Both the position numbers and the translations under genes were made by a program. Shown piece by piece: positions 11,254-28,884 of a stretch of 64,000 nucleotides of DNA; positions within the stretch are counted from its first letter, which is position 1; every line of letters starts with the position of its first letter. The stretch is taken from contig DASWJN010000069.1 of NCBI GenBank assembly GCA_036397135.1, positions 1,500-65,499 on the forward strand, given 5' to 3'. Source of the DNA: Candidatus Methylomirabilota bacterium. Lineage in GTDB: Bacteria > Methylomirabilota > Methylomirabilia > Rokubacteriales > CSP1-6. The notes below the pieces were generated by a model. The model did not search any database. It saw only the letters and a program-made list of their open reading frames with translations, and was not told the origin of the DNA.

Positions 11254-13449
11254 TCACCGCCGCATCCGGAAGCGGTCGATCACGTTCTCGAGAATGCGCG
11301 AGACGTTGTTGTCGTAGCGGTTGTGCGACAGGCTGCCGCAGAAGGTGATGGACCCCACGGCGAAGATGGCGCCGCCGCCGGGCAGCTCGGCGTAGGTCAT
11401 GTCCGCCCGCAGCAGGCGGGCGGGCGGATCGCCCGTGACGGTCGAGATGTGGGAGAGCAGCTCCTCGGGGACCACGATGAAGCTCGGGCCGTGCCCCTCG
11501 GAGCTGGCGATCGTGATCGCGCCGGCGGGCGTGCCGAGTCGCGGGTCGGCCCGGTCGAGCTCGAACCCCGCCGCGCCTCCGCCCGACAGTCCGAAATCGC
11601 CGATGATGTCGTCCTTGACCCCGTCGAGGATCCACGCGGCCCGGGGGTCGTCGGCGCCGGGCTGGCGGCGATAGTACGAGCCCTCGAACAGCCCCTGCGC
11701 CGAGAAGCCGACGGCGGCGAGCTGCTGCGGCGGCCGCCCGTTGCGCCGCCAGAGCCCGCCGTAGGCGCCGTCGAGCGCGTGATAGTACTCGCCCACCTGG
11801 GCGTCCCAGGTCCGGATGCCGCCCTCGGCGCGCCGCACCTCGAGGACGCCGGGCACGGCCGGGCTGGTGGCGATGCGCCAGTAGAAGCCGTTGCCGCCGA
11901 GGTAGATCAGGCGCCCGCCGCCGTCGAGGTAGCCCGCGTGGGCGTCGAGCGTGCGGGCGGTGTGGTACTCGGGGTGGGAGCCGGTCAGCACGGTCGCGTA
12001 GGGAGCGAGCAGGGCCGAGCCCTCGGCGTCGACGTCCTCGTCGGTGACGACGTCGTGGCGGATGCCCTGCGCGTCGAGCCAGCCGAGCAGGTGCGTGTCG
12101 GCCGGGTAGTGACGCAGGCCCGAGCCGCGCGCGTCGTGGAAGGTGAGATAGCGCGGCCGGAAGGTCAGCACCGGACGCAGCCGCGAGGAGTAGCAGATGC
12201 CGCTGCCGTCGCGGTGCCGGTTGTAGGTCGACCGGCCGTACTCGGGATGATCGTCCGCGTTGTGCGGGTAGGCGCCCCAGGCGGCGATGCGCGCGCGGAA
12301 GGCGTCGTCCAGGCTGCTGCGGGCGTGATTGGCGTAGGCCTGGTAGGTGTAGGTCGACGCGATGAAGAGCACGTCCGCCCCCGGACGTCCGCGGGGCGGG
12401 CGCACGTAGAACGGCAGCTCGTCCGCGTGGCCCTCGGCGGCCAGGCGCATGACGTAGGCGCCGCTCGGCAGGTCCTCGGGCACCGTGAACTCGAAGTCGG
12501 TCGCCCAGCCGGCGTCGTGGAGGTCGTCGTCGTGGAAGTGAATGGCCGCGTACTCGCGCGGCGCGTGCCGCCAGCACATCTCGCGTCCCGTCCAGCGGGC
12601 GCCGGTGACCGCGCGGGTGGGCAGGTTGACCAGCCGCCCGCCGAGCCGGTGGGGGCCGACGTCGACGACGTCGAGCCCCTCGATGCCCTGCGAGAAGTCC
12701 CAGCCCGCCACCAAGCCGTCGGGCGGCAGCAGGGGATCGAGCACCAGCGCCTCCGGCGCCGCTGCCGCGACGGCGAGCAGCATGGGGTCCTCGATCCTGC
12801 CGTTGAAGTGCTCGCACGCGTCGGGCGCCAGGCGCGCGCCGAGCAGCAGCGGGACCGCCGCGTCGAGCCGGGCGCCGCGCGGCAACGGCGCCGTCACCTC
12901 GTGGCGCTCGCCCCGGGCGCCGCCGGCGAGCGAGGCGTGGCCGGCGCGCAGCGTGTCCGCCTCCGGGTCGGCCACCAGCCAGACCCGGTACCACCGGCGA
13001 AGCGTCAGGGGGCGCGCCGTGGCGAGCGCGAGCGGCGCGCCGCCGGGAACGCCGACGCGCGCGGTGACGCCGCCGGGGCCCACCGACAGCGCCCACCCCG
13101 CGCCGCCCGCCTCGTCCCAGCGCGAGACCACGCACTGCTCGCCGCGGGCCAGCGTCGGCCAGACCAGGGCGGTCACGGTGAGCGGGCCGGCGGTGCGCAG
13201 CGCGGCGGCACCGTCGACGCGCGCGTGGGAGCCCAGCGCGATCGGCTGCACGCGCGAGGGCCGCTCGATGGCAAAGCGATGAACGAGGTCCTCGACCTTC
13301 ACGCCGGGCCCGGCCGGGTTGGGATCGGCGTGCACCACGCGCGCCAGGCTGGCGCGATAGGGACCGGCCGCGGCGCTCGAGATCTTGAAGGCGAGACGCT
13401 CGCCGGCCGCGGCCGAGAGCCGGTCGGTGTAGCCGGTCAGCGGGATCAC
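11254..13449 (-). CDS. N,N-dimethylformamidase large (beta) subunit family protein
   Basis: GTG start (RC 13447-13449) encoding VIPLTGYTDRLSAAAGERLAFKISS..., then FIASTYTYQAYANH, LIYLGGNGFYWRIA and a C-terminal ...FAVGSITFCGSL. Full-length match to the DmfA2-like family (~731 aa). The remainder of the 1507-aa track ORF is antisense read-through. Confidence 0.8.
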   Translation of the reverse strand: MIPLTGYTDRLSAAAGERLAFKISSAAAGPYRASLARVVHADPNPAGPGVKVEDLVHRFAIERPSRVQPIALGSHARVDGAAALRTAGPLTVTALVWPTLARGEQCVVSRWDEAGGAGWALSVGPGGVTARVGVPGGAPLALATARPLTLRRWYRVWLVADPEADTLRAGHASLAGGARGERHEVTAPLPRGARLDAAVPLLLGARLAPDACEHFNGRIEDPMLLAVAAAAPEALVLDPLLPPDGLVAGWDFSQGIEGLDVVDVGPHRLGGRLVNLPTRAVTGARWTGREMCWRHAPREYAAIHFHDDDLHDAGWATDFEFTVPEDLPSGAYVMRLAAEGHADELPFYVRPPRGRPGADVLFIASTYTYQAYANHARSSLDDAFRARIAAWGAYPHNADDHPEYGRSTYNRHRDGSGICYSSRLRPVLTFRPRYLTFHDARGSGLRHYPADTHLLGWLDAQGIRHDVVTDEDVDAEGSALLAPYATVLTGSHPEYHTARTLDAHAGYLDGGGRLIYLGGNGFYWRIATSPAVPGVLEVRRAEGGIRTWDAQVGEYYHALDGAYGGLWRRNGRPPQQLAAVGFSAQGLFEGSYYRRQPGADDPRAAWILDGVKDDIIGDFGLSGGGAAGFELDRADPRLGTPAGAITIASSEGHGPSFIVVPEELLSHISTVTGDPPARLLRADMTYAELPGGGAIFAVGSITFCGSLSHNRYDNNVSRILENVIDRFRMRR

Positions 13450-13563
13450 GGCAGGCCGGATTCTAGCATTGGCTTTACCTTTCCCCCGGGGCTGGTGTAT
13501 CGTCCCTCCACATTCGCCCGGGCCGCTGCCGTCCCGTCGCACAGTTCGAAGGAGGATACCCTT

Positions 13564-15096
13564 ATGAGGCGTTGGTTCCCCGGCCTTCTGACCCTGGCTC
13601 TCGCCGCGCTCGTCGCCATGCCGACCGGCGTTGCCGCGCAGGGCAAGGACACGCTCACCGTCGCGCTGCCGTCGCACGCGCCGACCCTGGACCCCCACAT
13701 GCACTTCGAGCGGGTCGGCATCCTGGTCAACATCAACATGTTCGACTCGCTCTTGCACCGCTCCGCCAAGCTCGAGTTCGAGCCCTCGCTGGCCCTGTCG
13801 TGGAAGGCGCTGAACGACACGACGTGGGAGTTCAAGCTCCGCAAGGGCGTCAAGTTCCACGACGGCTCGACCATGACCGCCGAGGACGTGAAGTTCTCCT
13901 TCGACCGGGTGCTGGAGCCGGGCAAGGAGAAGAAGAAGTCGCCCCAGTACGGCAACGTGCGGGCGATCAAGGAAGTGAGGATCGTCAACCCGGACACGAT
14001 CCACCTGTTCACCGACAAGCCCTTCCCCCTGCTGCTCGAGCGCCTGGTGTTCTTCCCCATCGTCCCCAGGAAGCACCTCGAGAAGGTGGGTGACGAGGCG
14101 TTCGGCAGCACGGCCGCCGTGGGCACCGGCCCCTGGAAGCTCGTGGAGTGGAAGCGCGACCAGCACATCCGGCTGGAGGCCTTCGACCAGCACTGGCGCG
14201 GGAAGCCGGCGTTCAAGCACCTCGTCTTCCGAGCGATCCCCGAGGTGGCGACCTCGGTGGCCGAGCTCAAGACGGGCGGCGTCGACATCATCCGCAACGT
14301 CAACGCCGATCTCCTCCCCGACCTCAAGGCCCATCCGCTGACGCGCATCAGCACGACGCCGATCCTGCGCGTGCACTACATCATGCTCGACATGCGGAGC
14401 GCGCCGTTCGACAAGAAGGCCGCCCGCCAGGCCGCCAACTACGCCATCGACCGGCAGGCGATGATCCAGAAGATGATGGCAGGCCTGGGGCAGCAGGTGG
14501 CCACGGTCGTCCAGCCGGCCGCCTTCGGGCACGATCCGTCCGTGCAGCCGTACACGTACGATCCGAAGAAGGCCAGGGAGCTGCTCGCCCAGGCCGGCTA
14601 CCCGAACGGCGTCGACATCACCCTGCACAGCGCCGCGGTGGACTGGCGCCCGCACTTCGAGGCCCTGGGCCAGATGTTCACGGAGGTCGGGCTCCGGACG
14701 ACCGTGAAGATGTGGGACCCGGGCCCGGCCTGGAACAAGTTCTTCCAGGGGGAGGGCAAGGCGGCCAACGGCGCGTACGGCAGCTGGGGCAACTACTCCG
14801 TGTTCGACGCCGACGCCGTGCTGCACCCGCTCTATCACACCGAGCCCGGCGGCTGGATCGGCAAGCACTACGCGCGGGTGGAGGGTCTCGACAAGCTCGT
14901 CGACGAGGCTCGCTCGATCGTCGACCAGCCCCGACGCAAGCAGATCTACGCGCGGATCCAGGCCATGCTCCGCGAGGAGGCGCCGTCGGTCTTCCTGTGG
15001 ACGCAGAACGACACGCTCGGCATCTCCCGCAAGGTCGCCTACGAGGCGCGCCCCGACGAGTGGCTGTGGCTCTTCGCGGCCAAGCCGCAGAACTGA
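13564..15096 (+). CDS. ABC transporter substrate-binding protein, family 5 (DppA/OppA-like)
   Basis: AAGGAGG SD, then ATG 13564 encoding MRRWFPGLLTLALAALVAMPTGVAAQ (signal peptide). Cluster-C SBP motifs follow. Confidence 0.85.
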   Translation: MRRWFPGLLTLALAALVAMPTGVAAQGKDTLTVALPSHAPTLDPHMHFERVGILVNINMFDSLLHRSAKLEFEPSLALSWKALNDTTWEFKLRKGVKFHDGSTMTAEDVKFSFDRVLEPGKEKKKSPQYGNVRAIKEVRIVNPDTIHLFTDKPFPLLLERLVFFPIVPRKHLEKVGDEAFGSTAAVGTGPWKLVEWKRDQHIRLEAFDQHWRGKPAFKHLVFRAIPEVATSVAELKTGGVDIIRNVNADLLPDLKAHPLTRISTTPILRVHYIMLDMRSAPFDKKAARQAANYAIDRQAMIQKMMAGLGQQVATVVQPAAFGHDPSVQPYTYDPKKARELLAQAGYPNGVDITLHSAAVDWRPHFEALGQMFTEVGLRTTVKMWDPGPAWNKFFQGEGKAANGAYGSWGNYSVFDADAVLHPLYHTEPGGWIGKHYARVEGLDKLVDEARSIVDQPRRKQIYARIQAMLREEAPSVFLWTQNDTLGISRKVAYEARPDEWLWLFAAKPQN

Positions 15097-15117
15097 GGCG
15101 CTGAGGGAGGAGGCGCC

Positions 15118-16032
15118 GTGTCGGCGTTCCTGGTGCGGCGCCTCCTTCGGTTCGTCGTCGTCTGCATCGGCGTCTCCCTCGTCACCTTCGCCATCCTCCA
15201 CGCCAGCGGCGACCCGGTGGCCTTGATCATGCCGGAGGCGCCCGAGGCCGATCGCGCCATGCTCCGGGAGGCGCTGGGACTCTCCGATCCGCTGCCGACG
15301 CAGTTCGTCCGCTTCGTCGCCAACGCGACGCGTGGCGACTTCGGCAACTCGTTCTTCCACCGCGAGCCGGCGTTCGCCCTCGTCATCGAGCGCATGCCGA
15401 CGACGCTCGCGCTCACCTGCCTCGCCGTCCTGCTGGCGCTCGCGGTCGCCCTGCCCGTCGGCATCTACAGCGCCGTGCGGCGCAACACGCTCCTGGACCA
15501 CGTGGCGACGGTGGTCGTCTTCCTCGGGCAGTCCATGCCGGTGTTCTGGATCGGCATCATGCTCATGCTGCTCTTCGCGGTGCAGTGGCGGCTGCTGCCG
15601 GTCTCCGGCTGGGAGTCGTGGGCGTCGATGGTGCTGCCGGCGGTGACCCTGGGCGCCTTCACCATGCCGCTGTTCATGCGGCTCGTTCGCTCTAGCATGC
15701 TGGAGGTCATCAACCTCGACTACGTGCGGACGGCCCGGGCCAAGGGGGTGTCGGAATGGCTGGTGGTCTGCCGCCACGCGCTGCGGAACGCGGCGCTGCC
15801 GATCGTCACCGTGATCGGCCTGCAGTTCGGGCTCCTGCTCGGCGGGGCCGTGCTGACGGAGACGGTGTTCGCGGTCCCCGGCGTCGGGCGCCTGATCGTC
15901 GGGGCGATCCGGCAGCTCGATTTTCCGATCGTGCAGGCCGGCGTGTTCCTGCTCGCGATCATCATCGTGACCGTCAACTTCCTGGTGGACGTGCTGTACG
16001 TCTACCTGAACCCGACGATCCGGCTGCGCTGA
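15118..16032 (+). CDS. ABC transporter permease (DppB/OppB-like)
   Basis: GTG start after GAGGGAGGAGG. Six TM segments with the EAA-like motif region. Confidence 0.85.
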   Translation: MSAFLVRRLLRFVVVCIGVSLVTFAILHASGDPVALIMPEAPEADRAMLREALGLSDPLPTQFVRFVANATRGDFGNSFFHREPAFALVIERMPTTLALTCLAVLLALAVALPVGIYSAVRRNTLLDHVATVVVFLGQSMPVFWIGIMLMLLFAVQWRLLPVSGWESWASMVLPAVTLGAFTMPLFMRLVRSSMLEVINLDYVRTARAKGVSEWLVVCRHALRNAALPIVTVIGLQFGLLLGGAVLTETVFAVPGVGRLIVGAIRQLDFPIVQAGVFLLAIIIVTVNFLVDVLYVYLNPTIRLR

Positions 16033-17168: not shown

Positions 17169-18593
17169 ATGACCGTCCCCCTGCGGTTGAGCGAGGGCGA
17201 CGCCCGGACGTTGCTCTTGATCCAGGCCATCGATGACACGGACCAGGAGGGCGTGCTGCTGCCACCGCGGACGCGTGCCGCGGCGACCCGTCGCGCGTTC
17301 GACGATCTGTCGCGGCCCACCGACGACCTCGCGCGGCTGAGCAAACGCGCATCCCTCCTGCAGGACGACCTGCTGCGTGAGGCACCGGCCCTCAGGCGTG
17401 TGCTGCACCCACCACGGTTGCGAGGGGCCTTCGTCCTCGCGACGATCGCGGTGGCCGCGGTCGCCGGCGCGTCGACGAACGTCTTCGGCCCCGAGCGTCA
17501 CGTGAGCGTGCTGGCCTTTCCACTTGCCGGCATCCTCGCGTGGAACCTCGCCGTCTACGCCGCCCTCGTCGCCCGGGCGGTCGCCCGCACGGTGGCACGC
17601 TCGCGGGGGACGGGCCCGACGCGCAGTCGTCTTGCGCTCCTGGGGCGGTGGCTGGAAGGCGCGTGGCTGTCAGGCCTCGCGCGCCGGCTGGGCGCGAGCG
17701 CGCGATCGGTCGCGGTGACCGAGGCCGTCCGGCGATTCCAGCAGCTGTGGCTCCCGACGGCCGCGCCGCTGGTCGCGGCGCGCGCGCGGACCGTGCTCCA
17801 CCTCGCCGCGCTCGCGATGGCGCTGGGCGCGGCCGTCGGGATGTACGTGTCGGGCATCGCCTTCGAGTACCGCGCGACCTGGGAGAGCACCTGGCTGGAT
17901 GCCCCGGCGGTGCAGCGATATCTCGACGTGGCGCTCGGGCCGGCGGCGCGCGTGCTGGGCATGCCGGTTCCGGACGTTGCTCCCCTGCGCGGCCCCGCCG
18001 GCGAGGGGAGCGCGGCGCCCTGGATCCACCTCTGGGGGACGACCCTGGGCGTCTTCGTCCTGATCCCGCGGGCGGCGCTGGCCCTCCTCGACGCCCTGAC
18101 CGCCGCGCGTCTCTCGCGGCGGTTGCCGGTCCACGTCGACGCCGGTTACGTCCGGCGCGCGCTCCACAGCGGTCGTGGGGCGGCGACGCTCGTGGAGATC
18201 GTCTACTACAGCTGCCGTCCGGACACGGGTCTGCGCGAGCGGCTGCACACGACGCTCCAGGAGGAGGTCGGCGCGCGCGCCGTGATCCGCGATGGCGCGC
18301 ACCTGGACTACGGCGACGGACCCGAACGCGTCGCGGTGCCCGACGACACGTCGCGCTCGGGCCTGATCGTGCCGGTGTTCACCCTGGCCCAGACCCCGGA
18401 GCCCGAGGTGCATGGCGAGTTCGTGGAGCGCCTGCGGGACCGCCTCGACCGGGCGGGCGTCCGGATGCTGGTGGTCCTCGAGACGGCGACGTACCGGCAG
18501 CGCGTCGGCTCGGAGGACCGCGTGCGCGAGCGGCGGGCGACGTGGGATCGCCTGCTGCGCGATCTGCAACTGATCGCGATCGACCTCGCGTAG
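17169..18593 (+). CDS. DUF2868 domain-containing membrane protein
   Basis: 474 aa. An N-terminal soluble region, then several TM helices (FVLATIAVAAVAGA, LAFPLAGILAWNLAVYAAL, LHLAALAMALGAAVGMYV, LWGTTLGVFVLIP). It pairs with the downstream GTPase. Confidence 0.65.
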   Translation: MTVPLRLSEGDARTLLLIQAIDDTDQEGVLLPPRTRAAATRRAFDDLSRPTDDLARLSKRASLLQDDLLREAPALRRVLHPPRLRGAFVLATIAVAAVAGASTNVFGPERHVSVLAFPLAGILAWNLAVYAALVARAVARTVARSRGTGPTRSRLALLGRWLEGAWLSGLARRLGASARSVAVTEAVRRFQQLWLPTAAPLVAARARTVLHLAALAMALGAAVGMYVSGIAFEYRATWESTWLDAPAVQRYLDVALGPAARVLGMPVPDVAPLRGPAGEGSAAPWIHLWGTTLGVFVLIPRAALALLDALTAARLSRRLPVHVDAGYVRRALHSGRGAATLVEIVYYSCRPDTGLRERLHTTLQEEVGARAVIRDGAHLDYGDGPERVAVPDDTSRSGLIVPVFTLAQTPEPEVHGEFVERLRDRLDRAGVRMLVVLETATYRQRVGSEDRVRERRATWDRLLRDLQLIAIDLA

Positions 18594-18596
18594 CCC

Positions 18597-20066
18597 GTGA
18601 CGACGGTGACGCTCAGCCTCATCTCGCACACCAACGCCGGCAAGACGACGCTCGCCCGCACGCTGCTGCGCCGCGACGTCGGCGAGGTGCGAGACGAGCC
18701 CCACGTGACGACGGTCGCGGAGGCGCACGTGCTGATCGAGACCGACGCCGCCCGCCTCCTGCTCTGGGACACGCCGGGCTTCGGGGACACCGTGCGGCTG
18801 ATGACGCGTCTCCGCCACGAGGGCGACCCGATCGGCTGGGTCCTGCACCAGGCGTGGGACCGGGTGCTCAACCGCCCCCTCTGGTGCAGCCAGGAAGCGG
18901 TGCGCAACGTCCGGGACGAGGCGGACGTCGTCCTCTATCTGGTGAACGCGACCGAGGATCCCGAGGCGGCCGGGTACACGAAGCACGAACTCGAGCTGCT
19001 GTCGTGGATGAACCGTCCCGTCCTGGTCGTCCTGAACCAGGTCGGGGCGGAGAACGCCCGCCGAACGGTGGAGCACTGGCGCAGTCACCTCGCGTCGTTC
19101 GAGATCGTCCGCGGGGTGCTCTCGCTCGACGCGTTCAGCCGCGCGTGGGTGGAAGAGAGCCTCGTGCTCGAACGCGTGGTGGGCCTGCTCGACGGCGAGA
19201 AGCGGAACGCGATGGTCGGCCTCCTGCGGGCCTGGAACGACCGGAACCTGCGCATCTTCGACGCTTCGATCGAGGCGATCGCGCAGTATCTCGCGGGGAT
19301 CGGGGTCGACCGCGAGCCCATCGGGTCAGCGTCGAGCGCGGGAGCCTCCTGGATGGGCGAGCGACTCGCCGATCTTCGCGCGCTGTCCCGCGTCGACCGC
19401 GAGCGTGCCATGGGCGCCCTGTTCGACCGGGTGCAGGCGGCCACCCGACGGCTGATGGATCGGCTGATCGAGCTGCATCAGCTCTCGGGCGCGAGCCGGG
19501 CCCAGGTCGAGCGCCGCCTCGAGGACGCCACGGTCCAGGGCCACGCGGCGATCAATCCGACGACGGGAGCGATCGCCGGGGGGGCCGTCAGCGGCCTGCT
19601 GGCCGGCCTCGGCGCCGACGTCCTGGCGGGAGGGCTCTCGCTCGGCGGCGGCGCCATCGTAGGGGCGATGCTCGGCGCGCTCGGAGGCTACGCGTTCGGG
19701 GGCGCCTACAAGCTCGCCACGGGCGGTGAATCGGGCATCCAGTTCCAGCCGGCCGCGCTGGACCGTCTCGCGCGCGAGGCCGTGATGCGCTATCTCCTGG
19801 TCGCCCATCATGGCCGCGGTCGCGGCGACTACGCCGACCTCGAGTATCCGGCGCACTGGGCGGCCGACGTCGACGCCGAGGTCGCGCGGCGGCGCGACGC
19901 GTTGCACGCGGCCTGGCGCCAGGCCGCGCGAGGCGGCAGTGGATCAGCCCCGGTGGTGGCCGACCGCCTCCGGCTTGTGCTGCGCGAGATCATACGCGAC
20001 GTGCTCCGGCGGCGGTTCCCCGCCGCGGCGGTCCTGTCCGACGATCACGCCGAGCTCGCCCCCTGA
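18597..20066 (+). CDS. DUF3482 domain-containing GTPase
   Basis: GTG 18597. P-loop LISHTNAGKTTL, switch II DTPGFGD and NQVG (NKxD-like). A C-terminal Gly-rich hydrophobic segment GAIAGGAVSGLLAGLGADVLAGG. Confidence 0.7.
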   Translation: MTTVTLSLISHTNAGKTTLARTLLRRDVGEVRDEPHVTTVAEAHVLIETDAARLLLWDTPGFGDTVRLMTRLRHEGDPIGWVLHQAWDRVLNRPLWCSQEAVRNVRDEADVVLYLVNATEDPEAAGYTKHELELLSWMNRPVLVVLNQVGAENARRTVEHWRSHLASFEIVRGVLSLDAFSRAWVEESLVLERVVGLLDGEKRNAMVGLLRAWNDRNLRIFDASIEAIAQYLAGIGVDREPIGSASSAGASWMGERLADLRALSRVDRERAMGALFDRVQAATRRLMDRLIELHQLSGASRAQVERRLEDATVQGHAAINPTTGAIAGGAVSGLLAGLGADVLAGGLSLGGGAIVGAMLGALGGYAFGGAYKLATGGESGIQFQPAALDRLAREAVMRYLLVAHHGRGRGDYADLEYPAHWAADVDAEVARRRDALHAAWRQAARGGSGSAPVVADRLRLVLREIIRDVLRRRFPAAAVLSDDHAELAP

Positions 20067-23660: not shown

Positions 23661-25367
23661 TCAGCCACCGGGCGCCGTCAAGCCGTGGCCGCCCGCCGGG
23701 TCGGCCATCGGCCCCGCCGGAGCGCCCCCGACCAGGGTGAGCTCGACGGTGAGGTGCTCCAGCCGCTCCTCGGGGCAGGTGAGCGGGTCCTCCGAGAGGA
23801 CGGCGAGGTCGGCCAGCTTGCCGACCTCGATCGAGCCCAGCCGGTCCTCGGCCCACGTCAACCGGTGGCCGGTCTGGACGGAGAGCCGCAGCGCCTCCTC
23901 GCGCGTCAGCCGGCTGTCGCCCAGGCGCCTCTTGCCGTCGCCGTCCCACCGCGCGAGCGCCTCCCACAGCGTCCACGTCATCGCGGGGGGGACGCCGTCG
24001 GTGCCGAGCGCCACCGGGATGCCGGCGTCGAGCATCTCGCGGAGCGGGATCGCGGCGGGCCCCACGGCGTCGAGGCCATAGCGGTCGCCCGCCATGTAGA
24101 GAAAGCCGGGCGTCGCGGTGACGATGACGCCGAGCGCCTTCATCCGCCGCAGCTGCGCCGGCGTCGCCTGGTTCACGTGGATGAGCACCCAGCGCCGGTC
24201 GCGGATCGGGACCTCCCGGTCGACCGTCTCGAACGCGGCCAGCGCGTACTCGAGGTCGCGGCTGACGATGGTCCCCACCCGTAGGCCAAGGCGCGCGGCT
24301 TCCAGGGCCAGCCGCGTGAACCGCGCGGGCGCCATCGCGGGATTGTAGTGGCCGGCCCACTGCTCGTACGGATAGCCGCCGGCCACGATCTCCGCCACCC
24401 GCTCGTCGCCGGCGCCGCCGAGCGTGAGCCCTTCCACGCGGAACGTGTCGTCGCCCAGGCCCCGGCCGCCGGCGACGGCCGCCCACTGGCGCATGAGGTC
24501 GACGATGTGGGCGTCGTCGAAGGCCGAGGTGGGCAGGCTCACCGGCGCGTGCAGGCGGAGCGGCAGGCCCTCGCGCTCGTGCACCTCGCGGTAGGCGCGC
24601 AGCAGCGCCGGCGTCAGCCCGTGGCCCTCCCAGCCGGCGGTGGTGCCGGCGGCGCGGTAGCGCCGCGTGCCGGCCCGCACGCTCTCGACCCGGTCGGCGG
24701 CGGTGAACCGCGGCAGGCAGCGGAACAGCGTGTACTCGAGCACGGGCACGAAACTGCGCTCGAGGAAGACGCCGGTGGGCTCGCCGCGGCCGTCACGGAG
24801 AATCTCGACGCCGGGCGGGGCCGGCGTGTCGCGCGTGACGCCGGCCAGCCGGAGCGCCGCCGTGCCGGCGACCGAGGGGAACGGCCGGCGGCTCCACCAG
24901 CCCCACACGGCGCGGACGTAGACGGGGTGGCCGGGCGCGGCCGCGTCGAGGTCGTGCCGGGTCGGAAAGCGACCCTCGCGGAGCTGATCCGGCCGGCTGA
25001 CGTAGTCGTGCGGCGGCGAGCCCATCGGCATGAGCACGATCCACTCGCCGGGCCTCGTCGTCGCCGCCGCCTCGCGCACGACGTCGACGATCTCCGCCAC
25101 GGAGGTGAGACCGGCGATGGGGATCCCGCCCCGCGTCTTCAAGCCCTCGCGGTCGACGTGGGGATGCGCGTCGAAGAACCCGGGAACGACCGCCCGGGCT
25201 GAGAGATCGAGGGTGCGCGTGGCCGGCGAGGCATCGCACAGGAGCGCCGCGGAGTCGCCGACCGCGACGATGCGCCCGCCGCGGACCGCAACCGCCTCCG
25301 CGAGGCGGGAGCCCGCGTCGAGCGTGATGACCTTGCCTCCGTGCAGGATGAGGTCGGGCGCCGGCAA
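23661..25367 (-). CDS. amidohydrolase family protein (Amidohydro_3, N-acyl-D-amino-acid deacylase-like)
   Basis: 568 aa. FFDAHPHVD (HxH metal site) and GTDGVP. Confidence 0.8.
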   Translation of the reverse strand: MPAPDLILHGGKVITLDAGSRLAEAVAVRGGRIVAVGDSAALLCDASPATRTLDLSARAVVPGFFDAHPHVDREGLKTRGGIPIAGLTSVAEIVDVVREAAATTRPGEWIVLMPMGSPPHDYVSRPDQLREGRFPTRHDLDAAAPGHPVYVRAVWGWWSRRPFPSVAGTAALRLAGVTRDTPAPPGVEILRDGRGEPTGVFLERSFVPVLEYTLFRCLPRFTAADRVESVRAGTRRYRAAGTTAGWEGHGLTPALLRAYREVHEREGLPLRLHAPVSLPTSAFDDAHIVDLMRQWAAVAGGRGLGDDTFRVEGLTLGGAGDERVAEIVAGGYPYEQWAGHYNPAMAPARFTRLALEAARLGLRVGTIVSRDLEYALAAFETVDREVPIRDRRWVLIHVNQATPAQLRRMKALGVIVTATPGFLYMAGDRYGLDAVGPAAIPLREMLDAGIPVALGTDGVPPAMTWTLWEALARWDGDGKRRLGDSRLTREEALRLSVQTGHRLTWAEDRLGSIEVGKLADLAVLSEDPLTCPEERLEHLTVELTLVGGAPAGPMADPAGGHGLTAPGG

Positions 25368-25407
25368 GGGGCTTACGGGCCGCGTCGGAGGCGATCGTCC
25401 TCCTGCA

Positions 25408-28400
25408 TCAGCCGAGCCCCGCCTCCCCGGGCGCCGGGCTCACCATGTGGTGCACGGAATAGCGGCTGACCAGCGTCGAGACCTCCCGGAGCGCGTCGAT
25501 CTCCAGATCATTCTTGCCGTGCGAGAACTCGCGCAGCGCCTCCAGCGTCGTCTGCCAGGTCTCGTCGCCGTCGCCGAAGCTCTCCACCAGGTCGGACAGC
25601 CGGTTCGCCGGACCGCCTTCGCGCCCGTGCAGCTCGCGGAACACGCGCTGCGCGAACCGAGGGGCCCCGGTGACCAGCGCCAGCAGCACCTGGACGGCCC
25701 GGAAGTTGCCGGGCCGATCCGGCGTTCCCACGAACCGCGCCAGCGCCGGGTGCGAGAGCGCGGCCTTGTACAGCCGGTAGATGTTCACGAAGCGCTTCAC
25801 GGACCTCGGTGTGCGGGGCATCAGCGGCGCCACCTCGTCCATGAACTGCAGCTCGGCCTCGGTGATCTTCAGGCTCTCGGTGGGCGCGGCCAGCCCCTCG
25901 CCGCCGATGAATTCGTCCTCGCCCTCGGCCTCGGCCGTGGCGCGCTTCGCCGCCGCCCGGGCGGGCGCCTCGGCGGTCGTGCCCTCGGCCGCGCGCGCGG
26001 TCGAACCCGGATCGTCCGCGGGATCGTCGGGCGGCGGAGGCACGGCGGCGACTGGAGCCGGAGCCGTCTCCACCTCCTCCGACGAGATCAGCGCGTGGAT
26101 CAGGCGCCGGACCCCGGCGGGCTCCATGCGGCGCAGCCAGAACGGCACCTGGAAGATCTTTTCCAGGAAGTCCTGGCTCTCGGCGGGCGCGCGCTCCAGC
26201 CCCTCCGGCGTTTCGCCGGACGGGATCGATTCGTCGGCCAGCATGCCCTGGTAGTGCTTGTGGAGGGCCCGCGAGACCCAGCGCGAGTCCACGCCGACCA
26301 CCACGACGAAGAGCGGGAAGAACAGGAGCAGGTGCACGGCCTCGAGCACGCGGACGACCTTCTCCGGGGGGTGGCACCGGTCGAGGTCGTCGATGTAGAG
26401 GACGATCCGATCGATCCGCGGCAGCCCGGGATCGCCCTGGTTCGTCCTCGCCGCCTCCATCAGCGCGGACAGCCGCTCGAAATCTCGGTGGATCATCGCG
26501 ATCAGCCCGAGATGCTTGTCGTAGTCGGCGCTCGAGGTGCGCTCCCGGATGAAACGTCCGAGGCGCGCCTGGGACGTCGAGTCGCGCACGACCTCGGCGG
26601 CCTGCCGCTCTGCCTCCGCCGCCTGCTCCTGCTCACGCCGCGCCTGCTCGAGCCGGGCCCGGGCCTCCTGCTCGTTCGCCAACGCCGCCTCCCGGTCCTT
26701 CTCGAACGCCCGGAGGTCCTTGCTGCGCGCCTCCTCGATCCGTCGCGTGACGTTCGCCTGCAGGGCCGACAGCCGGTCGAACACCGTGCTGGCTCCGGCG
26801 AGACGTGAGCGAGCCCAGGCGACCGCCGCCCCGAGCACGGTGAGGGCCTCGCCGACCACGGTCCACAGGTGCGCCCAGCCCTCGGGCAGCTCCTGCCACT
26901 GGGCCACTCCGAAGACCATCATCGGAATCGCCACCAGCATGGCGACCACGATCCAGAAGCCCCGGGTGGTGTGCAGCCGGGCCCCGCTCAGCACGCGCCA
27001 CCAGAACCCCGCCCGTGACGCGAGCGCTCGCGCTTCGTCGAGCAACGCCTGGGCGTCGGCCACGGTCGCCTCGCCCGACCCCAGGCGGTCCGCCGCCGTC
27101 CTGAACTCCGGCCGTCCCGACCACTCCGCCGCCGACCTCATGAGCTCGATCAGCGTGGCGCGATCGGTGCCGGCGACGTCGGCGACGCTCTCCCCGAGGA
27201 TCTTCCGCAGCTCCGCGTCCGACGGCGGCGGTGGCGGAGGCAGCCGCGCGAGCTGCCGCTCGGCCTCCGCGACCTTCTGGCGCGCCTCCCCATGGCGCTT
27301 CTCGGCGTCCTCGAGCCGCTGCTCCGCTTCCTTGCGCAGCTCGCGGACGATCTCCAGCCGGTTGAGCAGGCGGTTGAAGTCGTCGGCGTCGTTCTGGCGC
27401 CCGTCGAGGAAGATGCACAGCTGGCTGAAGATCGTGCTGACCAGGCTGGCCCACAGGTTCGTTTCCGTGTAGTGCCAGGCGTTGAAGCGTATCTGAGAGA
27501 TCCGCGGCCAGTAGAGCGGCACCGTCGCGTCCTGTGCCTGCGAGAGCTGCTCGATCCTGTCGTAGAGGCGGTCCATGAAGAACGTCTTGCCCGAACCCCA
27601 GTCGCCGAACAGGCCGATCGACAGCGGTGGCGTGAGGTTGCGCGAGGCCATCACCCGCGCGAAGGCGTCCACGTAGCGGTCGACCTGGAGGCGGTCGCGG
27701 GTGCCGCCCGTGTCGGCGTCGAAGCGGGCGATCCACTGGCGCCGCTCGAGGTCCGGCAACCGGTCATCGCCCAGGCCGTGCGCGTGCCGGGCCCATGCGC
27801 GCGGCCACGCCTCCTCGAGCCGCTGGGTCACGGTCGAGTCCAGGGCGACGCCGCCGGAGGGGCTGGACCAGACGGTCGAGTCGCCCGTCTCCTCGATCAG
27901 GCGCGGCAGGTCGAGAAACGGCTCACGGGACAGGGCCGTCCAGCGGACGTCGACCAGGAACGACGTGCGGCCCCGATGGCTCTCGGCGGGGTCCCAGTGC
28001 GGTCCTTCCACGACGCTGCCGTGGACCTCGCCCACGCCGACCAGACCCCGCGGTTCCGGTCCCTGGCGGACGAGGAAGACGCGCTCGCCCCGCGACATCG
28101 TGCGGCGGGTCCCGGTGCTCCAGCGCACGACCGTCGAGCCGTCCTCCCGGACCTCCTGCGCGCGGCCCTCCAGCTCGGGGAAGGGGAACCGCGCCGGGTT
28201 CCAGGTGAACAGGTACGCCGCCGCGGCCGGCTTGTCCTCGGCCGGCAGCGGAACGCCGGCGCCCCGCCACCACCGTTGCCAGGCATCCGGCGTGCGGCGC
28301 TGGTCGCTGGACCGGAGGAAGTTGAGCCACTCGCGACGGAGCGTGTCGACATCCGAGCCCGCCGCGCGCGCGATCTCGGGCAGCGACGGGTCGTCCTTGG

Positions 28401-28758
28401 CGAGCAACGCCAGGGTCACGTAGTCGCGTCCCCACACCGTTTTCTTGTCGCCCAGGAAGCCCTCGGCGACCGAGAACGAGTCCGCCAGGGGTTTGCTCAG
28501 CGGCATCGCCGCGAGATCGGGCGGCGGCACGTCGGTCGTCTTCACGTCCGGTCGGCTCGGCAGCGGCAGCAGGGAGGCAAGCTTCACGAAGGCGGCGGAG
28601 CGATCGGTCCGCGCCACGCGCAACGCCCCCTCGAGCAGATGGCCGGCGCTGAGCGGCCGGCCGCCCGCCAGCGCCCACGCCCGGTGGAGCGCCTTCTGGA
28701 CGTGGGCTTCCAGCTGGAACTGCGTGAAATTGACGACGACGGCGGTGAGCGCTGGCAT
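25408..28758 (-). CDS. KAP family P-loop NTPase with N-terminal Clp_N-like double repeat and EVE/PUA-like domain (1116 aa)
   Basis: ATG (RC 28756-28758) after GGGAG. Clp_N-like repeats at aa 1-150 (LSAGHLLEGALRVAR; VTLALLAKDDPSLPEIARAAG). An EVE-like region at aa ~181-320 (YLFTWNP...GERVFLVRQGPEPRGLVGVGEV...FLVDVRWTALSREPFLDLPRL). Walker A LFGDWGSGKT. TM helices inserted in the NTPase domain (FWIVVAMLVAIPMMVFGVAQW, WTVVGEALTVLGAAVAWA), the KAP hallmark. Walker B IVLYIDDLDRC. The rest of the 1817-aa track ORF is antisense of hyuA. Confidence 0.8.
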   Translation of the reverse strand: MPALTAVVVNFTQFQLEAHVQKALHRAWALAGGRPLSAGHLLEGALRVARTDRSAAFVKLASLLPLPSRPDVKTTDVPPPDLAAMPLSKPLADSFSVAEGFLGDKKTVWGRDYVTLALLAKDDPSLPEIARAAGSDVDTLRREWLNFLRSSDQRRTPDAWQRWWRGAGVPLPAEDKPAAAAYLFTWNPARFPFPELEGRAQEVREDGSTVVRWSTGTRRTMSRGERVFLVRQGPEPRGLVGVGEVHGSVVEGPHWDPAESHRGRTSFLVDVRWTALSREPFLDLPRLIEETGDSTVWSSPSGGVALDSTVTQRLEEAWPRAWARHAHGLGDDRLPDLERRQWIARFDADTGGTRDRLQVDRYVDAFARVMASRNLTPPLSIGLFGDWGSGKTFFMDRLYDRIEQLSQAQDATVPLYWPRISQIRFNAWHYTETNLWASLVSTIFSQLCIFLDGRQNDADDFNRLLNRLEIVRELRKEAEQRLEDAEKRHGEARQKVAEAERQLARLPPPPPPSDAELRKILGESVADVAGTDRATLIELMRSAAEWSGRPEFRTAADRLGSGEATVADAQALLDEARALASRAGFWWRVLSGARLHTTRGFWIVVAMLVAIPMMVFGVAQWQELPEGWAHLWTVVGEALTVLGAAVAWARSRLAGASTVFDRLSALQANVTRRIEEARSKDLRAFEKDREAALANEQEARARLEQARREQEQAAEAERQAAEVVRDSTSQARLGRFIRERTSSADYDKHLGLIAMIHRDFERLSALMEAARTNQGDPGLPRIDRIVLYIDDLDRCHPPEKVVRVLEAVHLLLFFPLFVVVVGVDSRWVSRALHKHYQGMLADESIPSGETPEGLERAPAESQDFLEKIFQVPFWLRRMEPAGVRRLIHALISSEEVETAPAPVAAVPPPPDDPADDPGSTARAAEGTTAEAPARAAAKRATAEAEGEDEFIGGEGLAAPTESLKITEAELQFMDEVAPLMPRTPRSVKRFVNIYRLYKAALSHPALARFVGTPDRPGNFRAVQVLLALVTGAPRFAQRVFRELHGREGGPANRLSDLVESFGDGDETWQTTLEALREFSHGKNDLEIDALREVSTLVSRYSVHHMVSPAPGEAGLG

Positions 28759-28884
28759 GGCGACTCCCGGATCCCTGGAGCGAGGCTGGCCCAGCGGCGG
28801 CCGGACTGTCAAGAGGCAAAGGTGCGGTCGAGCCTGGCGGCGCGCGATTGACTTCGCCCGGCCGTCGCGGTACAGCAACGAGCT

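What the first reader, a model, noticed from the sequence alone, without database searches (positions are those of the whole stretch)
25408..28758. Defence-system candidate: Clp_N-like plus EVE/PUA-like domains fused to a membrane-inserted KAP P-loop NTPase
This single 1116-aa gene has two Clp_N-like helical repeats (aa ~1-150) and an EVE-like PUA domain (aa ~181-320, nt ~27799-28218; YLFTWNP...GERVFLVRQGPEPRGLVGVGEV...FLVDVRWTALSREPFLDLPRL). These are followed by a KAP NTPase with Walker A GDWGSGKT (nt ~27586-27609), two TM helices inserted inside the NTPase domain and Walker B YIDDLDRC. EVE domains read modified bases and are typically fused to restriction or abortive-infection effectors. 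KAP NTPases (including PifA) are recurrent phage-exclusion components. This combination is not a named defence system as far as I can tell. It may sense modified phage DNA or RNA and trigger a membrane-level response.
Basis: partly seen in the sequence, partly recalled or inferred. Interest (0 to 1): 0.75.

Follow-up and report, generated by a model that had tools for sequence, protein, structure and literature searches.

The report
Membrane KAP ATPase with modified-base reader
A strain-variable 1116-residue gene encodes a membrane-anchored KAP ATPase switch fused to a Clp-N-like domain and an EVE-like (modified-base-reader) domain; it is probably a single-gene phage or plasmid defence sensor of a type not yet described, but no experiment or defence-island context backs this yet.

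Summary
Window 25408-28758 (-) is a real gene of 1116 aa. [quoted passage not shown] The KAP part has Walker A GDWGSGKT and Walker B YIDDLDRC, with a ~330-aa helical insert between them that carries a two-helix membrane hairpin.

Relatives of the EVE-like domain are fused to McrA-type HNH, Mrr_N and McrB-like AAA_5 modules. The same KAP clade swaps N-termini: TIR, Clp_N, EVE, PG-binding, LRR and PNP. A close relative with 94% identical flanks lacks exactly this gene.

Against a defence role, the neighbours are housekeeping genes, no partner gene is conserved, and the defence-island signal is weak. It is not QatA, PifA, Tmn or a restriction enzyme.

Most likely it is a single-protein immune sensor: modified nucleic acid or nucleotide is sensed, the NTPase assembles, and the membrane is perturbed. 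I rate it a new variant of a known kind, of moderate to high interest.

The parts
25408..28758 (-). Complete gene, 1116 aa plus stop codon (25408-25410): Clp-N-like, EVE-like and membrane-inserted KAP NTPase.
28255..28731 (-). Clp-N-like helical domain with a double repeat, aa ~10-168. Conserved VWGRD (aa 108-112), W144, W160 and W163.
27781..28227 (-). EVE-like PUA-fold domain, aa ~178-326. Motifs: YLFTWNP, RWSTG, GERVFLVRQG-EPRGLVGVG, PHWD, W297. W186, W213, G238, G243 and W297 are invariant.
27394..27726 (-). N-terminal half of the KAP P-loop core, aa 345-455, including the conserved FDAD...D.L pre-Walker region.
27583..27606 (-). Walker A GDWGSGKT, aa 385-392. K391 is invariant.
26410..27393 (-). 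Helical and coiled-coil insert within the NTPase domain, aa 456-783, including a 97-residue helix (aa 629-725).
   Evidence: AF2 full-length model. Ala/Glu/Arg-rich composition.
26899..26970 (-). Transmembrane helix 1, aa ~597-620.
   Evidence: Kyte-Doolittle mean up to 2.5 over 19 residues. AF2 helix 599-621.
26803..26871 (-). Transmembrane helix 2, aa ~630-652, joined to helix 1 by a 9-residue loop.
26374..26397 (-). Walker B, the KAP signature YIDDLDRC, aa 788-795.
25411..26409 (-). C-terminal half of the KAP core plus a helical C-terminal domain, aa 784-1116. It contains a disordered Ala/Pro/acidic linker at aa ~895-960 (nt 25879-26076).
28759..28840 (-). Upstream 82 bp that belongs to the indel. 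It holds GGGAG (28768-28764) 5 nt before the ATG, and a lone TTGACA hexamer (28812-28807).
   Evidence: No full sigma-70 consensus was found.
25367..28840 (.). 3474-bp segment (the gene plus short flanks) that is present here and replaced by 27 bp in a close relative (L087).

Best explanation
This is a solitary, horizontally mobile, single-protein conflict or immune sensor of the KAP NTPase class.

Shown:
- It is a cytoplasmic two-domain N-terminal module (Clp-N-like plus EVE-like) attached to a KAP-type AAA+/STAND-like P-loop switch.
- The core of that switch is split by a long coiled-coil stalk that ends in a two-helix membrane hairpin.
- The domain combination is conserved.
- The EVE-like domain belongs to a family that is otherwise fused to type IV restriction nucleases.
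- The KAP clade exchanges N-terminal modules with TIR, PNP, LRR and WD40.
- The gene is an accessory insertion.

Inferred:
- The EVE-like domain binds a modified base. This could be in invading DNA or RNA, or a modified nucleotide released during infection.
- The Clp-N-like domain acts as a protein or peptide-binding adaptor, or as an autoinhibitory partner.
- Ligand binding licenses ATP-dependent oligomerisation of the KAP core.
- The stalk then transmits this to the membrane hairpins, so that ions or small molecules leak or the envelope is remodelled. The result would be growth arrest or abortive infection, as reported for PifA and Tmn.
For: Architecture and domain identity.

Conservation of the fusion: about 77 of the 120 best homologues have it. 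These include Roseibium sediminicola and MAGs labelled Bacteroidetes and Gammaproteobacteria, at 45-73% identity.

The Clp-N/EVE pair is followed by a KAP domain in 9 of 10 longer proteins tested. Some of these carry an extra TIR_2, a weak, sub-threshold trypsin-like match or PG_binding_1 domain. One relative is PNP_UDP_1 + EVE-like + KAP.

Of 60 relatives of the EVE-like domain, 11 carry HNH, 4 HNH_2, 3 Mrr_N, 2 AAA_5 and 8 a Pfam EVE domain. The HNH of P0190 matches EcoKMcrA.

Among N-termini of 77 KAP-clade loci, 17 carry TIR_2, 6 Clp_N, 5 EVE, 5 PG_binding_1, 3 ThsB_TIR, plus LRR and WD40.

The NTPase core resembles ORC/Cdc6, STAND immune receptors (CED-4, ZAR1, NRC, Apaf-1, Avs3), RADAR RdrA and BrxC.

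Accessory status: a relative with 96% identical HtpG and 93-94.5% identical flanking DNA has 27 bp in place of the 3474 bp that hold this gene.

Published work:
- KAP NTPase proteins protect against phage and need Walker B (PMC13552941).
- Tmn, a P-loop NTPase with a membrane hairpin inside the domain, senses a phage protein and causes Mg2+ export and plasmolysis (PMC13001434).
- PUA-like domains can sense a modified mononucleotide as a danger signal (10.64898/2026.01.15.699771).
- EVE-HNH enzymes cut DNA containing 5mC or 5hmC (PMC6765204).
Against: There is no defence-island context. In the window the gene lies between hydantoinase A/B and an amidohydrolase-amidase-HtpG run. In six loci examined (the window's own and five homologues), only one homologue (L085) has an RM-like methyltransferase next to it.

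Among 135 immediate neighbours of KAP-clade loci, no Pfam family recurs more than twice. Only about 5-7 hit PADLOC models at all: mad2 3, mad3 2, MTase_I 1, PbeA 1.

PADLOC and NCBIfam give only weak, partial matches to the KAP core: QatA 77 bits against a cut-off of 600, PifA E 3e-7, PDC-S20 E 1e-8.

The gene is rare on plasmids (8 partial hits) and absent from phages. No integrase or transposase accompanies it.

No ligand, ATPase activity, oligomer or phenotype has been measured. The one KAP defence protein tested for mode of action, EF_KAP, did not behave as abortive infection (PMC13552941).
Confidence: 0.55

Rival explanations
1. It is a housekeeping or regulatory membrane-associated NTPase. 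The EVE-like domain would read modified cellular RNA (tRNA or rRNA) or nucleotides, and the KAP switch would regulate a membrane complex or stress response unrelated to invaders.
For: The neighbourhoods are housekeeping and metabolic, with no conserved defence partner. Many prokaryotic EVE domains sit in housekeeping operons (PMC7641849). Codon usage is host-like.
Against: The gene is absent from a close relative at an otherwise identical locus. Distribution is patchy: one full-length match among the 80 loci kept from the scan of 185,579 representative genomes. Orthologues at about 50% identity are scattered across phyla. N-terminal modules are exchanged with TIR, PNP, LRR and HNH-linked EVE domains. 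A housekeeping factor would not be expected to show these features.
Confidence: 0.15
2. It is an immune or conflict protein, but the EVE-like domain does not read modified bases. It would bind unmodified nucleic acid, a nucleotide second messenger or a protein. The trigger would then be something else, for example a phage protein recognised by the Clp-N-like domain or the C-terminal helical domain, as in Tmn or Avs.
For: The domain is divergent from canonical EVE (Pfam sub-threshold; 13-17% identity to solved EVE and YTH structures). Tmn and Avs sense phage proteins (PMC13001434). Clp-N domains are protein or peptide-binding modules (established knowledge of ClpA/B/C N-domains). Some homologues keep the Clp-N-like domain but replace the EVE-like one.
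Against: The domain family keeps several invariant Trp and His residues (W186, W213, H254/W255, W297), as expected for an aromatic base cage. Its relatives are fused to McrA-type HNH, Mrr_N and McrB-type AAA_5, the typical partners of modified-base readers.
Confidence: 0.2
3. It is the sensor or regulator half of a multi-component system. The effector (nuclease, protease or Clp machinery recruited through the Clp-N-like domain) would be encoded elsewhere, and the membrane hairpin would serve only for localisation.
For: QatA, RdrA and BrxC are KAP-like or related NTPases that work with partner proteins. The protein has no recognisable enzymatic effector domain. Relatives that do carry effectors (TIR, PNP, and a weak trypsin-like match) have them fused in cis, which suggests the core itself may need one.
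Against: There is no conserved neighbour in 135 flanking genes. The 3.5-kb indel contains this gene alone. Single-gene KAP proteins were sufficient for defence in PMC13552941.
Confidence: 0.1

Closest known systems
KAP-family P-loop NTPases with transmembrane helices inserted in the NTPase domain (Pfam PF07693; Aravind et al. 2004, cited from memory). This includes the experimentally antiphage EF_KAP proteins (PMC13552941).
   Same: Pfam KAP_NTPase match, Walker A, the DDLDR Walker B signature, a membrane hairpin between the two motifs, and single-gene organisation. The class is shown to defend against phage in a Walker-B-dependent manner.
   Different: EF_KAP and the three metagenomic KAP proteins tested carry uncharacterised C-terminal regions. 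They have no N-terminal Clp-N-like or EVE-like module. This protein also has a ~330-aa coiled-coil stalk insert.
EVE-KAP proteins recognised by Pfam (PF01878 + PF07693; for example P0093, P0099, P0103 and locus L021).
   Same: The same KAP clade (29-35% identity over about 65% of the protein) and an EVE domain in the N-terminal region, next to a helical region.
   Different: The domain order is reversed: EVE comes first, then the helical domain. The EVE is canonical and Pfam-positive. They are uncharacterised, and I found no paper describing them.
EVE-HNH and PUA-HNH modification-dependent (type IV) restriction endonucleases, such as VcaM4I and the TspA15I group.
   Different: There is no nuclease domain. 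The output module is a membrane-anchored NTPase, so any restriction would have to work without cutting DNA.
[quoted passage not shown]
   Same: A two-helix membrane hairpin inside a P-loop domain, long helical cytosolic arms, single-gene defence and a membrane-level outcome.
   Different: It belongs to a different NTPase family; there is no YobI-ATPase Pfam hit here. Tmn has no accessory reader domains and senses phage proteins through a C-terminal solenoid.
PifA (F plasmid, exclusion of T7) and QatA (QatABCD).
   Same: KAP-type NTPase core (PADLOC PifA E 3e-7; QatA E 1e-16).
   Different: Only partial core matches. PifA lacks membrane helices (as stated in PMC13001434). QatA works with QatBCD, which are absent here. 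The NCBIfam QatA score is 77 against a cut-off of 600.
RADAR RdrA and STAND/Avs immune NTPases.
   Different: There is no RdrB partner. It is not a STAND family member by sequence. It is membrane-inserted.

Membership tests
KAP family P-loop NTPase (PF07693) | Profile match above the curated threshold. | tested here: met
   85.1 bits against a cut-off of 20, in two stretches split by the insert.
KAP family P-loop NTPase (PF07693) | Walker A GxxGxGK[ST] and Walker B hhhhDDLDR. | tested here: met
   GDWGSGKT at aa 385-392 and YIDDLDRC at aa 788-795, invariant in 65 sequences.
KAP family P-loop NTPase (PF07693) | Transmembrane helices inserted within the P-loop domain. | tested here: met
   Two hydrophobic helices at aa 597-620 and 630-652, between Walker A and Walker B. 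This is a prediction only.
KAP family P-loop NTPase (PF07693) | NTP hydrolysis and oligomerisation. | not testable with these tools
   Needs biochemistry.
EVE domain (PF01878, PUA-like superfamily) | Profile match above the curated threshold. | tested here: not met
   14.7 bits against a cut-off of 23, E 0.031, although it is the only Pfam hit for aa 172-335.
EVE domain (PF01878, PUA-like superfamily) | PUA-like pseudobarrel fold closest to EVE and YTH. | tested here: met
EVE domain (PF01878, PUA-like superfamily) | Sequence-profile homology to bona fide EVE domains. | tested here: met
   hhalign 94.4%, E 9e-8, against Pfam-positive EVE domains of KAP relatives. The only PDB hit of the family profile is 2eve, E 0.022. 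8 of 60 family members are Pfam EVE-positive.
EVE domain (PF01878, PUA-like superfamily) | Conserved aromatic pocket that binds a modified base. | tested here: inconclusive
   Invariant or near-invariant W186, W213, H254, W255 and W297. Ligand binding cannot be tested here.
Clp_N (PF02861) | Profile match. | tested here: not met
   No hit even at E 10.
Clp_N (PF02861) | Double four-helix repeat fold of Clp/Hsp100 N-domains. | tested here: met
QatA of the QatABCD system | NCBIfam equivalog score, and QatB, QatC and QatD neighbours. | tested here: not met
   77 bits against a cut-off of 600. The neighbours are hydantoinase and amidohydrolase.
PifA | Full-length similarity to PifA. | tested here: not met
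   PADLOC PifA E 3e-7 over aa 354-447 only.
Tmn / YobI-like NTPase (PF20693) | YobI-ATPase profile match. | tested here: not met
   Not among the Pfam hits at E <= 1. Some shorter relatives (P0137, P0128) do give weak YobI hits beside KAP.
Type IV (modification-dependent) restriction endonuclease | A modified-base reader plus a nuclease domain (HNH, PD-(D/E)XK or GIY-YIG), or a McrBC-type partner. | tested here: not met
   A reader-like domain is present. No nuclease domain appears in Pfam or in the AF2 model, and there is no McrC-like neighbour.
Defence-island resident | Recurrent co-location with known defence genes. | tested here: not met
   1 of 6 full-architecture loci is next to an RM-like gene. 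About 5-7 of 135 immediate neighbours hit PADLOC models. There was no formal background control.

The most novel reading that the evidence does not exclude
This is a nuclease-free, membrane-tethered counterpart of type IV restriction. A Clp-N/EVE reader on a ~100-angstrom coiled-coil stalk would detect hypermodified phage DNA, or modified nucleotides released during infection, close to the inner membrane. It would convert that signal, through ATP-driven assembly of KAP protomers, into opening or remodelling of the membrane hairpins. That would be a modification-triggered abortive-infection mechanism with no described precedent.
Probability: 0.3. Interest if true: 0.78.

Novelty: new variant of a known kind. 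Interest (0 to 1): 0.62.

Why it matters
KAP NTPases have only just been shown to be a class of antiphage proteins, and nobody knows what they sense or how they act. This family attaches a recognisable sensor, an EVE-like modified-base reader, to the KAP membrane switch. That gives a concrete, testable input for an otherwise opaque system.

If the reading is right, it links two areas that have been studied separately. One is modification-dependent recognition, so far coupled to nucleases or to dNTP depletion. The other is membrane-level immune effectors such as PifA and Tmn.

The modular N-termini of the clade (TIR, PNP, Clp_N, EVE, PG-binding, LRR, WD40) also suggest that membrane KAP proteins are a bacterial analogue of NLR/STAND receptors. 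They are abundant in soil phyla that are poorly covered by current defence catalogues.

Tried and rejected
- Pfam, PADLOC and NCBIfam on the whole protein name only the KAP core. Membership of QatA, PifA and PDC-S20/S49 was rejected as partial core matches.
- A sequence search of the PDB with the full-family profile found no solved homologue of the KAP part.
- I looked for a conserved partner gene. Pfam on 135 immediate neighbours of KAP-clade loci found none. PADLOC on the same set gave only scattered hits.
- I looked for mobility. Plasmids gave 8 partial hits and phages none. There is no integrase or transposase in the 3.5-kb indel, and no compositional anomaly.
- Promoter and terminator consensus scans were empty, as expected for a 72% GC genome.
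- Literature searches for an EVE-KAP or Clp_N-KAP description found nothing.
- Aravind et al. 2004 could not be retrieved and is cited from memory.
- One Pfam alignment scan failed because of the residue limit. One paper search failed because of a term-length limit.
- I considered and rejected that the long open frame up to 30861 is the real gene. Homologue N-termini and the SD-like site support the ATG at 28758.
Full report
OBSERVATION. The minus-strand frame is open from 30861, which is the usual over-extension in 72% GC DNA. The ATG at 28758 gives a 1116-aa product. A GGGAG sits five bases upstream, and homologues begin at the same place. Third-position GC is 0.93 in this frame, as in the flanking genes.

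Pfam names only KAP_NTPase: 85 bits in two stretches, because the domain is split. Walker B YIDDLDRC is aa 788-795. Both are invariant across 65 family members. Between them lie two strongly hydrophobic helices (aa ~597-620 and ~630-652) separated by nine residues. They sit inside a ~330-residue helical insert that includes one 97-residue helix.

THE TWO N-TERMINAL DOMAINS. Neither reaches a Pfam threshold. For aa 172-335 the only hit is EVE, at E 0.03. For aa 1-171 there is no hit. An AlphaFold2 model of aa 1-345, built on 58 homologues, is very confident (pLDDT 92.2, pTM 0.87).
- Foldseek against the PDB returns 2eve, 2ar1, THYN1 bound to 5mC DNA, YTH domains and ClpC/ClpC1 N-domains.

Sequence evidence agrees.
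- A profile of the second domain aligns with the Pfam-positive EVE domains of related KAP proteins at 94.4% probability, E 9e-8.
- A profile of the wider domain family hits only 2eve in the PDB sequence set.
- The HMM of the first domain weakly hits N-termini that Pfam calls Clp_N above threshold.

The correct wording is 'EVE-like' and 'Clp-N-like', meaning divergent members recognised by fold and by profile-profile comparison.

FAMILY AND ARCHITECTURE NETWORK. A search of 5.8 billion proteins found 1231 relatives. About 77 of the best 120 keep the same Clp-N-like + EVE-like + KAP order, at 45-73% identity. Named sources include Roseibium sediminicola and MAGs labelled Bacteroidetes and Gammaproteobacteria.

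Among one representative genome per species, at least 580 loci encode this KAP clade. Among the 80 best-scoring loci kept, only Roseibium has the full architecture. The others share aa ~340-1050 and differ at the N-terminus.

Pfam on 77 of those N-termini finds TIR_2 (17), Clp_N (6), EVE (5), PG_binding_1 (5), ThsB_TIR (3), LRR (2) and WD40 (1).

A full scan of 1.84 billion representatives with the N-terminal 345 residues gave 1679 hits. The Clp-N/EVE pair is followed by KAP in 9 of 10 longer proteins tested. Some have TIR_2 in front, PG_binding_1 in front, or a weak (sub-threshold, 21.1 bits against a cut-off of 27.6) trypsin-like peptidase match inserted. One genome has PNP_UDP_1 + EVE-like + KAP.

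The EVE-like domain also occurs alone, as proteins of about 150 aa. In 60 relatives sampled it is fused to HNH (11), HNH_2 (4), Mrr_N (3), AAA_5 (2) and NOV_C (2), and 8 are Pfam EVE-positive. The HNH of one such protein matches EcoKMcrA. This is the company kept by modified-base readers of type IV restriction systems (PMC6765204). TIR and PNP are typical immune effector domains; that statement rests on established knowledge.

No solved structure is a sequence homologue. The topology, with a hairpin and an ATP-binding core, puts the N-terminal module in the cytoplasm. This is inference.

CONTEXT. In the window the gene lies between divergent hydantoinase A/B genes and an amidohydrolase-amidase-HtpG run. 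HtpG is 89-90% identical to proteins from Rokubacteria/Methylomirabilota MAGs, so the window probably comes from an uncultured soil member of that phylum.

Five other full-architecture loci have unrelated neighbours: sulfatase-maturase and VWA; MetH; a sigma-54 activator; ATP synthase; and one RM-like methyltransferase. Among 135 genes immediately flanking KAP-clade loci, no Pfam family occurs more than twice. Only a handful hit PADLOC models: mad2 3, mad3 2, one type I methyltransferase and one PbeA. Plasmids give eight partial hits and phages none.

The gene is thus solitary, and it does not sit in defence islands.

ACCESSORY STATUS. A contig from a close relative (HtpG 96% identical) has the same hydantoinase and amidohydrolase genes, 93-94.5% identical in DNA. 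It carries 27 bp where the window has 3474 bp (25367-28840). That segment is the gene plus 82 bp upstream and 41 bp downstream. No recombinase is involved. The two ends share an imperfect 10-bp match: ATGCCAGCGC at the start of the KAP gene and TTGCCGGCGC at the start of the amidohydrolase gene. The same relative has a different 3-kb gene (Trans_reg_C + AAA_16) inserted two genes away. Presence or absence between near-identical loci, together with about 50% identity across phyla, argues for a horizontally exchanged accessory gene.

MECHANISM.
- Shown: the architecture; the conservation of the fusion; the kinship of the reader domain with restriction-enzyme readers; the modular exchange of N-termini; the AAA+/STAND-like core; and the accessory status.
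- Taken from the literature: KAP NTPase proteins defend against phage and need Walker B (PMC13552941). Tmn, with an analogous intradomain hairpin, forms a decamer, senses a phage protein and causes Mg2+ export and plasmolysis (PMC13001434). PifA is described there as causing membrane depolarisation. A PUA-like domain can sense m6-dAMP as a danger signal (10.64898/2026.01.15.699771).
- Inferred: the EVE-like domain binds a modified base in invader nucleic acid, or a modified nucleotide. Ligand binding licenses ATP-dependent oligomerisation, and the stalks transmit this to the membrane hairpins, which stops growth or phage replication.

I put the defence or conflict role at about 0.55 and this specific chain of events at about 0.3.

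COMPARISON AND NOVELTY. The protein is a member of the KAP family; all sequence-level criteria are met. It is not QatA, PifA, Tmn/YobI, RdrA or a type IV restriction enzyme, because defining features of each were tested and not met. The nearest relatives in architecture are uncharacterised Pfam EVE + KAP proteins with the opposite domain order.

I found no paper that describes an EVE-KAP or Clp-N-EVE-KAP protein. The EVE census (PMC7641849) does not mention KAP or P-loop at all, and the 2026 PUA paper lists HEPN, DrHyd, TIR, HNH and McrB fusions but not KAP. The searched library is incomplete, so this is absence of evidence only.

I rate it a new variant of a known kind: a known defence-class NTPase, a known class of reader, and a combination and output not yet described.

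VERDICT. Interest is 0.62. The anatomy is clear and gives a testable input for an otherwise opaque class of membrane immune proteins. However, the function rests on guilt by domain association, and the genomic context does not help.

Noticed in passing
window 25367-28840 compared with L087:3112-3138: The gene-sized indel has an imperfect 10-bp match at its two ends. ATGCCAGCGC is the start of the KAP gene, and TTGCCGGCGC is the start of the downstream amidohydrolase; in the relative that lacks the KAP gene the amidohydrolase starts ATGCCAGCGC. This may be microhomology used in the insertion or deletion, or it may be chance in GC-rich DNA.
   Followed up: partly
L087:6480-9455 (corresponds to the amidase/HtpG junction near window ~21985): The close relative that lacks the KAP gene carries a 991-aa Trans_reg_C + AAA_16 gene between amidase and HtpG. 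The window lacks it; there the two genes abut. The region therefore looks like a hotspot for single-gene indels of large NTPase genes.
   Followed up: no
P0093, P0099, P0103; L021:8930-10015: Related KAP proteins carry a canonical, Pfam-positive EVE domain at the extreme N-terminus, followed by a helical region.
   Followed up: partly
L029:9053-10555 (MAG Desulforhopalus sp.): Here the architecture is PNP_UDP_1 (nucleoside phosphorylase superfamily) + EVE-like domain + KAP. This is a possible nucleotide-degrading effector fused to the same reader and switch.
   Followed up: partly
P0154 (aa 165-220) and 5 of 77 KAP-clade N-termini: PG_binding_1 domains lie N-terminal to a module that should be cytoplasmic. 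Either these proteins have an extra membrane pass, or they sense peptidoglycan fragments inside the cell.
   Followed up: no
P0102 (1879 aa): A KAP-clade relative that keeps the Clp-N-like domain and also carries a large WD40 beta-propeller array.
   Followed up: no
window 17169-20066 (+), equivalent to L001:18687-21584: A conserved gene pair next to HtpG: a GTPase (MMR_HSR1 + DUF3482) and a 474-aa protein with no Pfam hit. The pair is kept in all three relatives examined (L087, L088, L089). It appears unrelated to the finding.
   Followed up: no
window 11254-15777: Very long open frames on both strands (1507 aa on the minus strand, 1257 aa on the plus strand). I did not check which of them, if either, is a gene.
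   Followed up: no
P0001 compared with window 25411-28758: The '100% identical' database protein is 1114 aa, not 1116. It has the same N-terminus but is not an exact substring of the window protein, so the ENA contig differs from the window by a small indel somewhere in the gene.
   Followed up: partly
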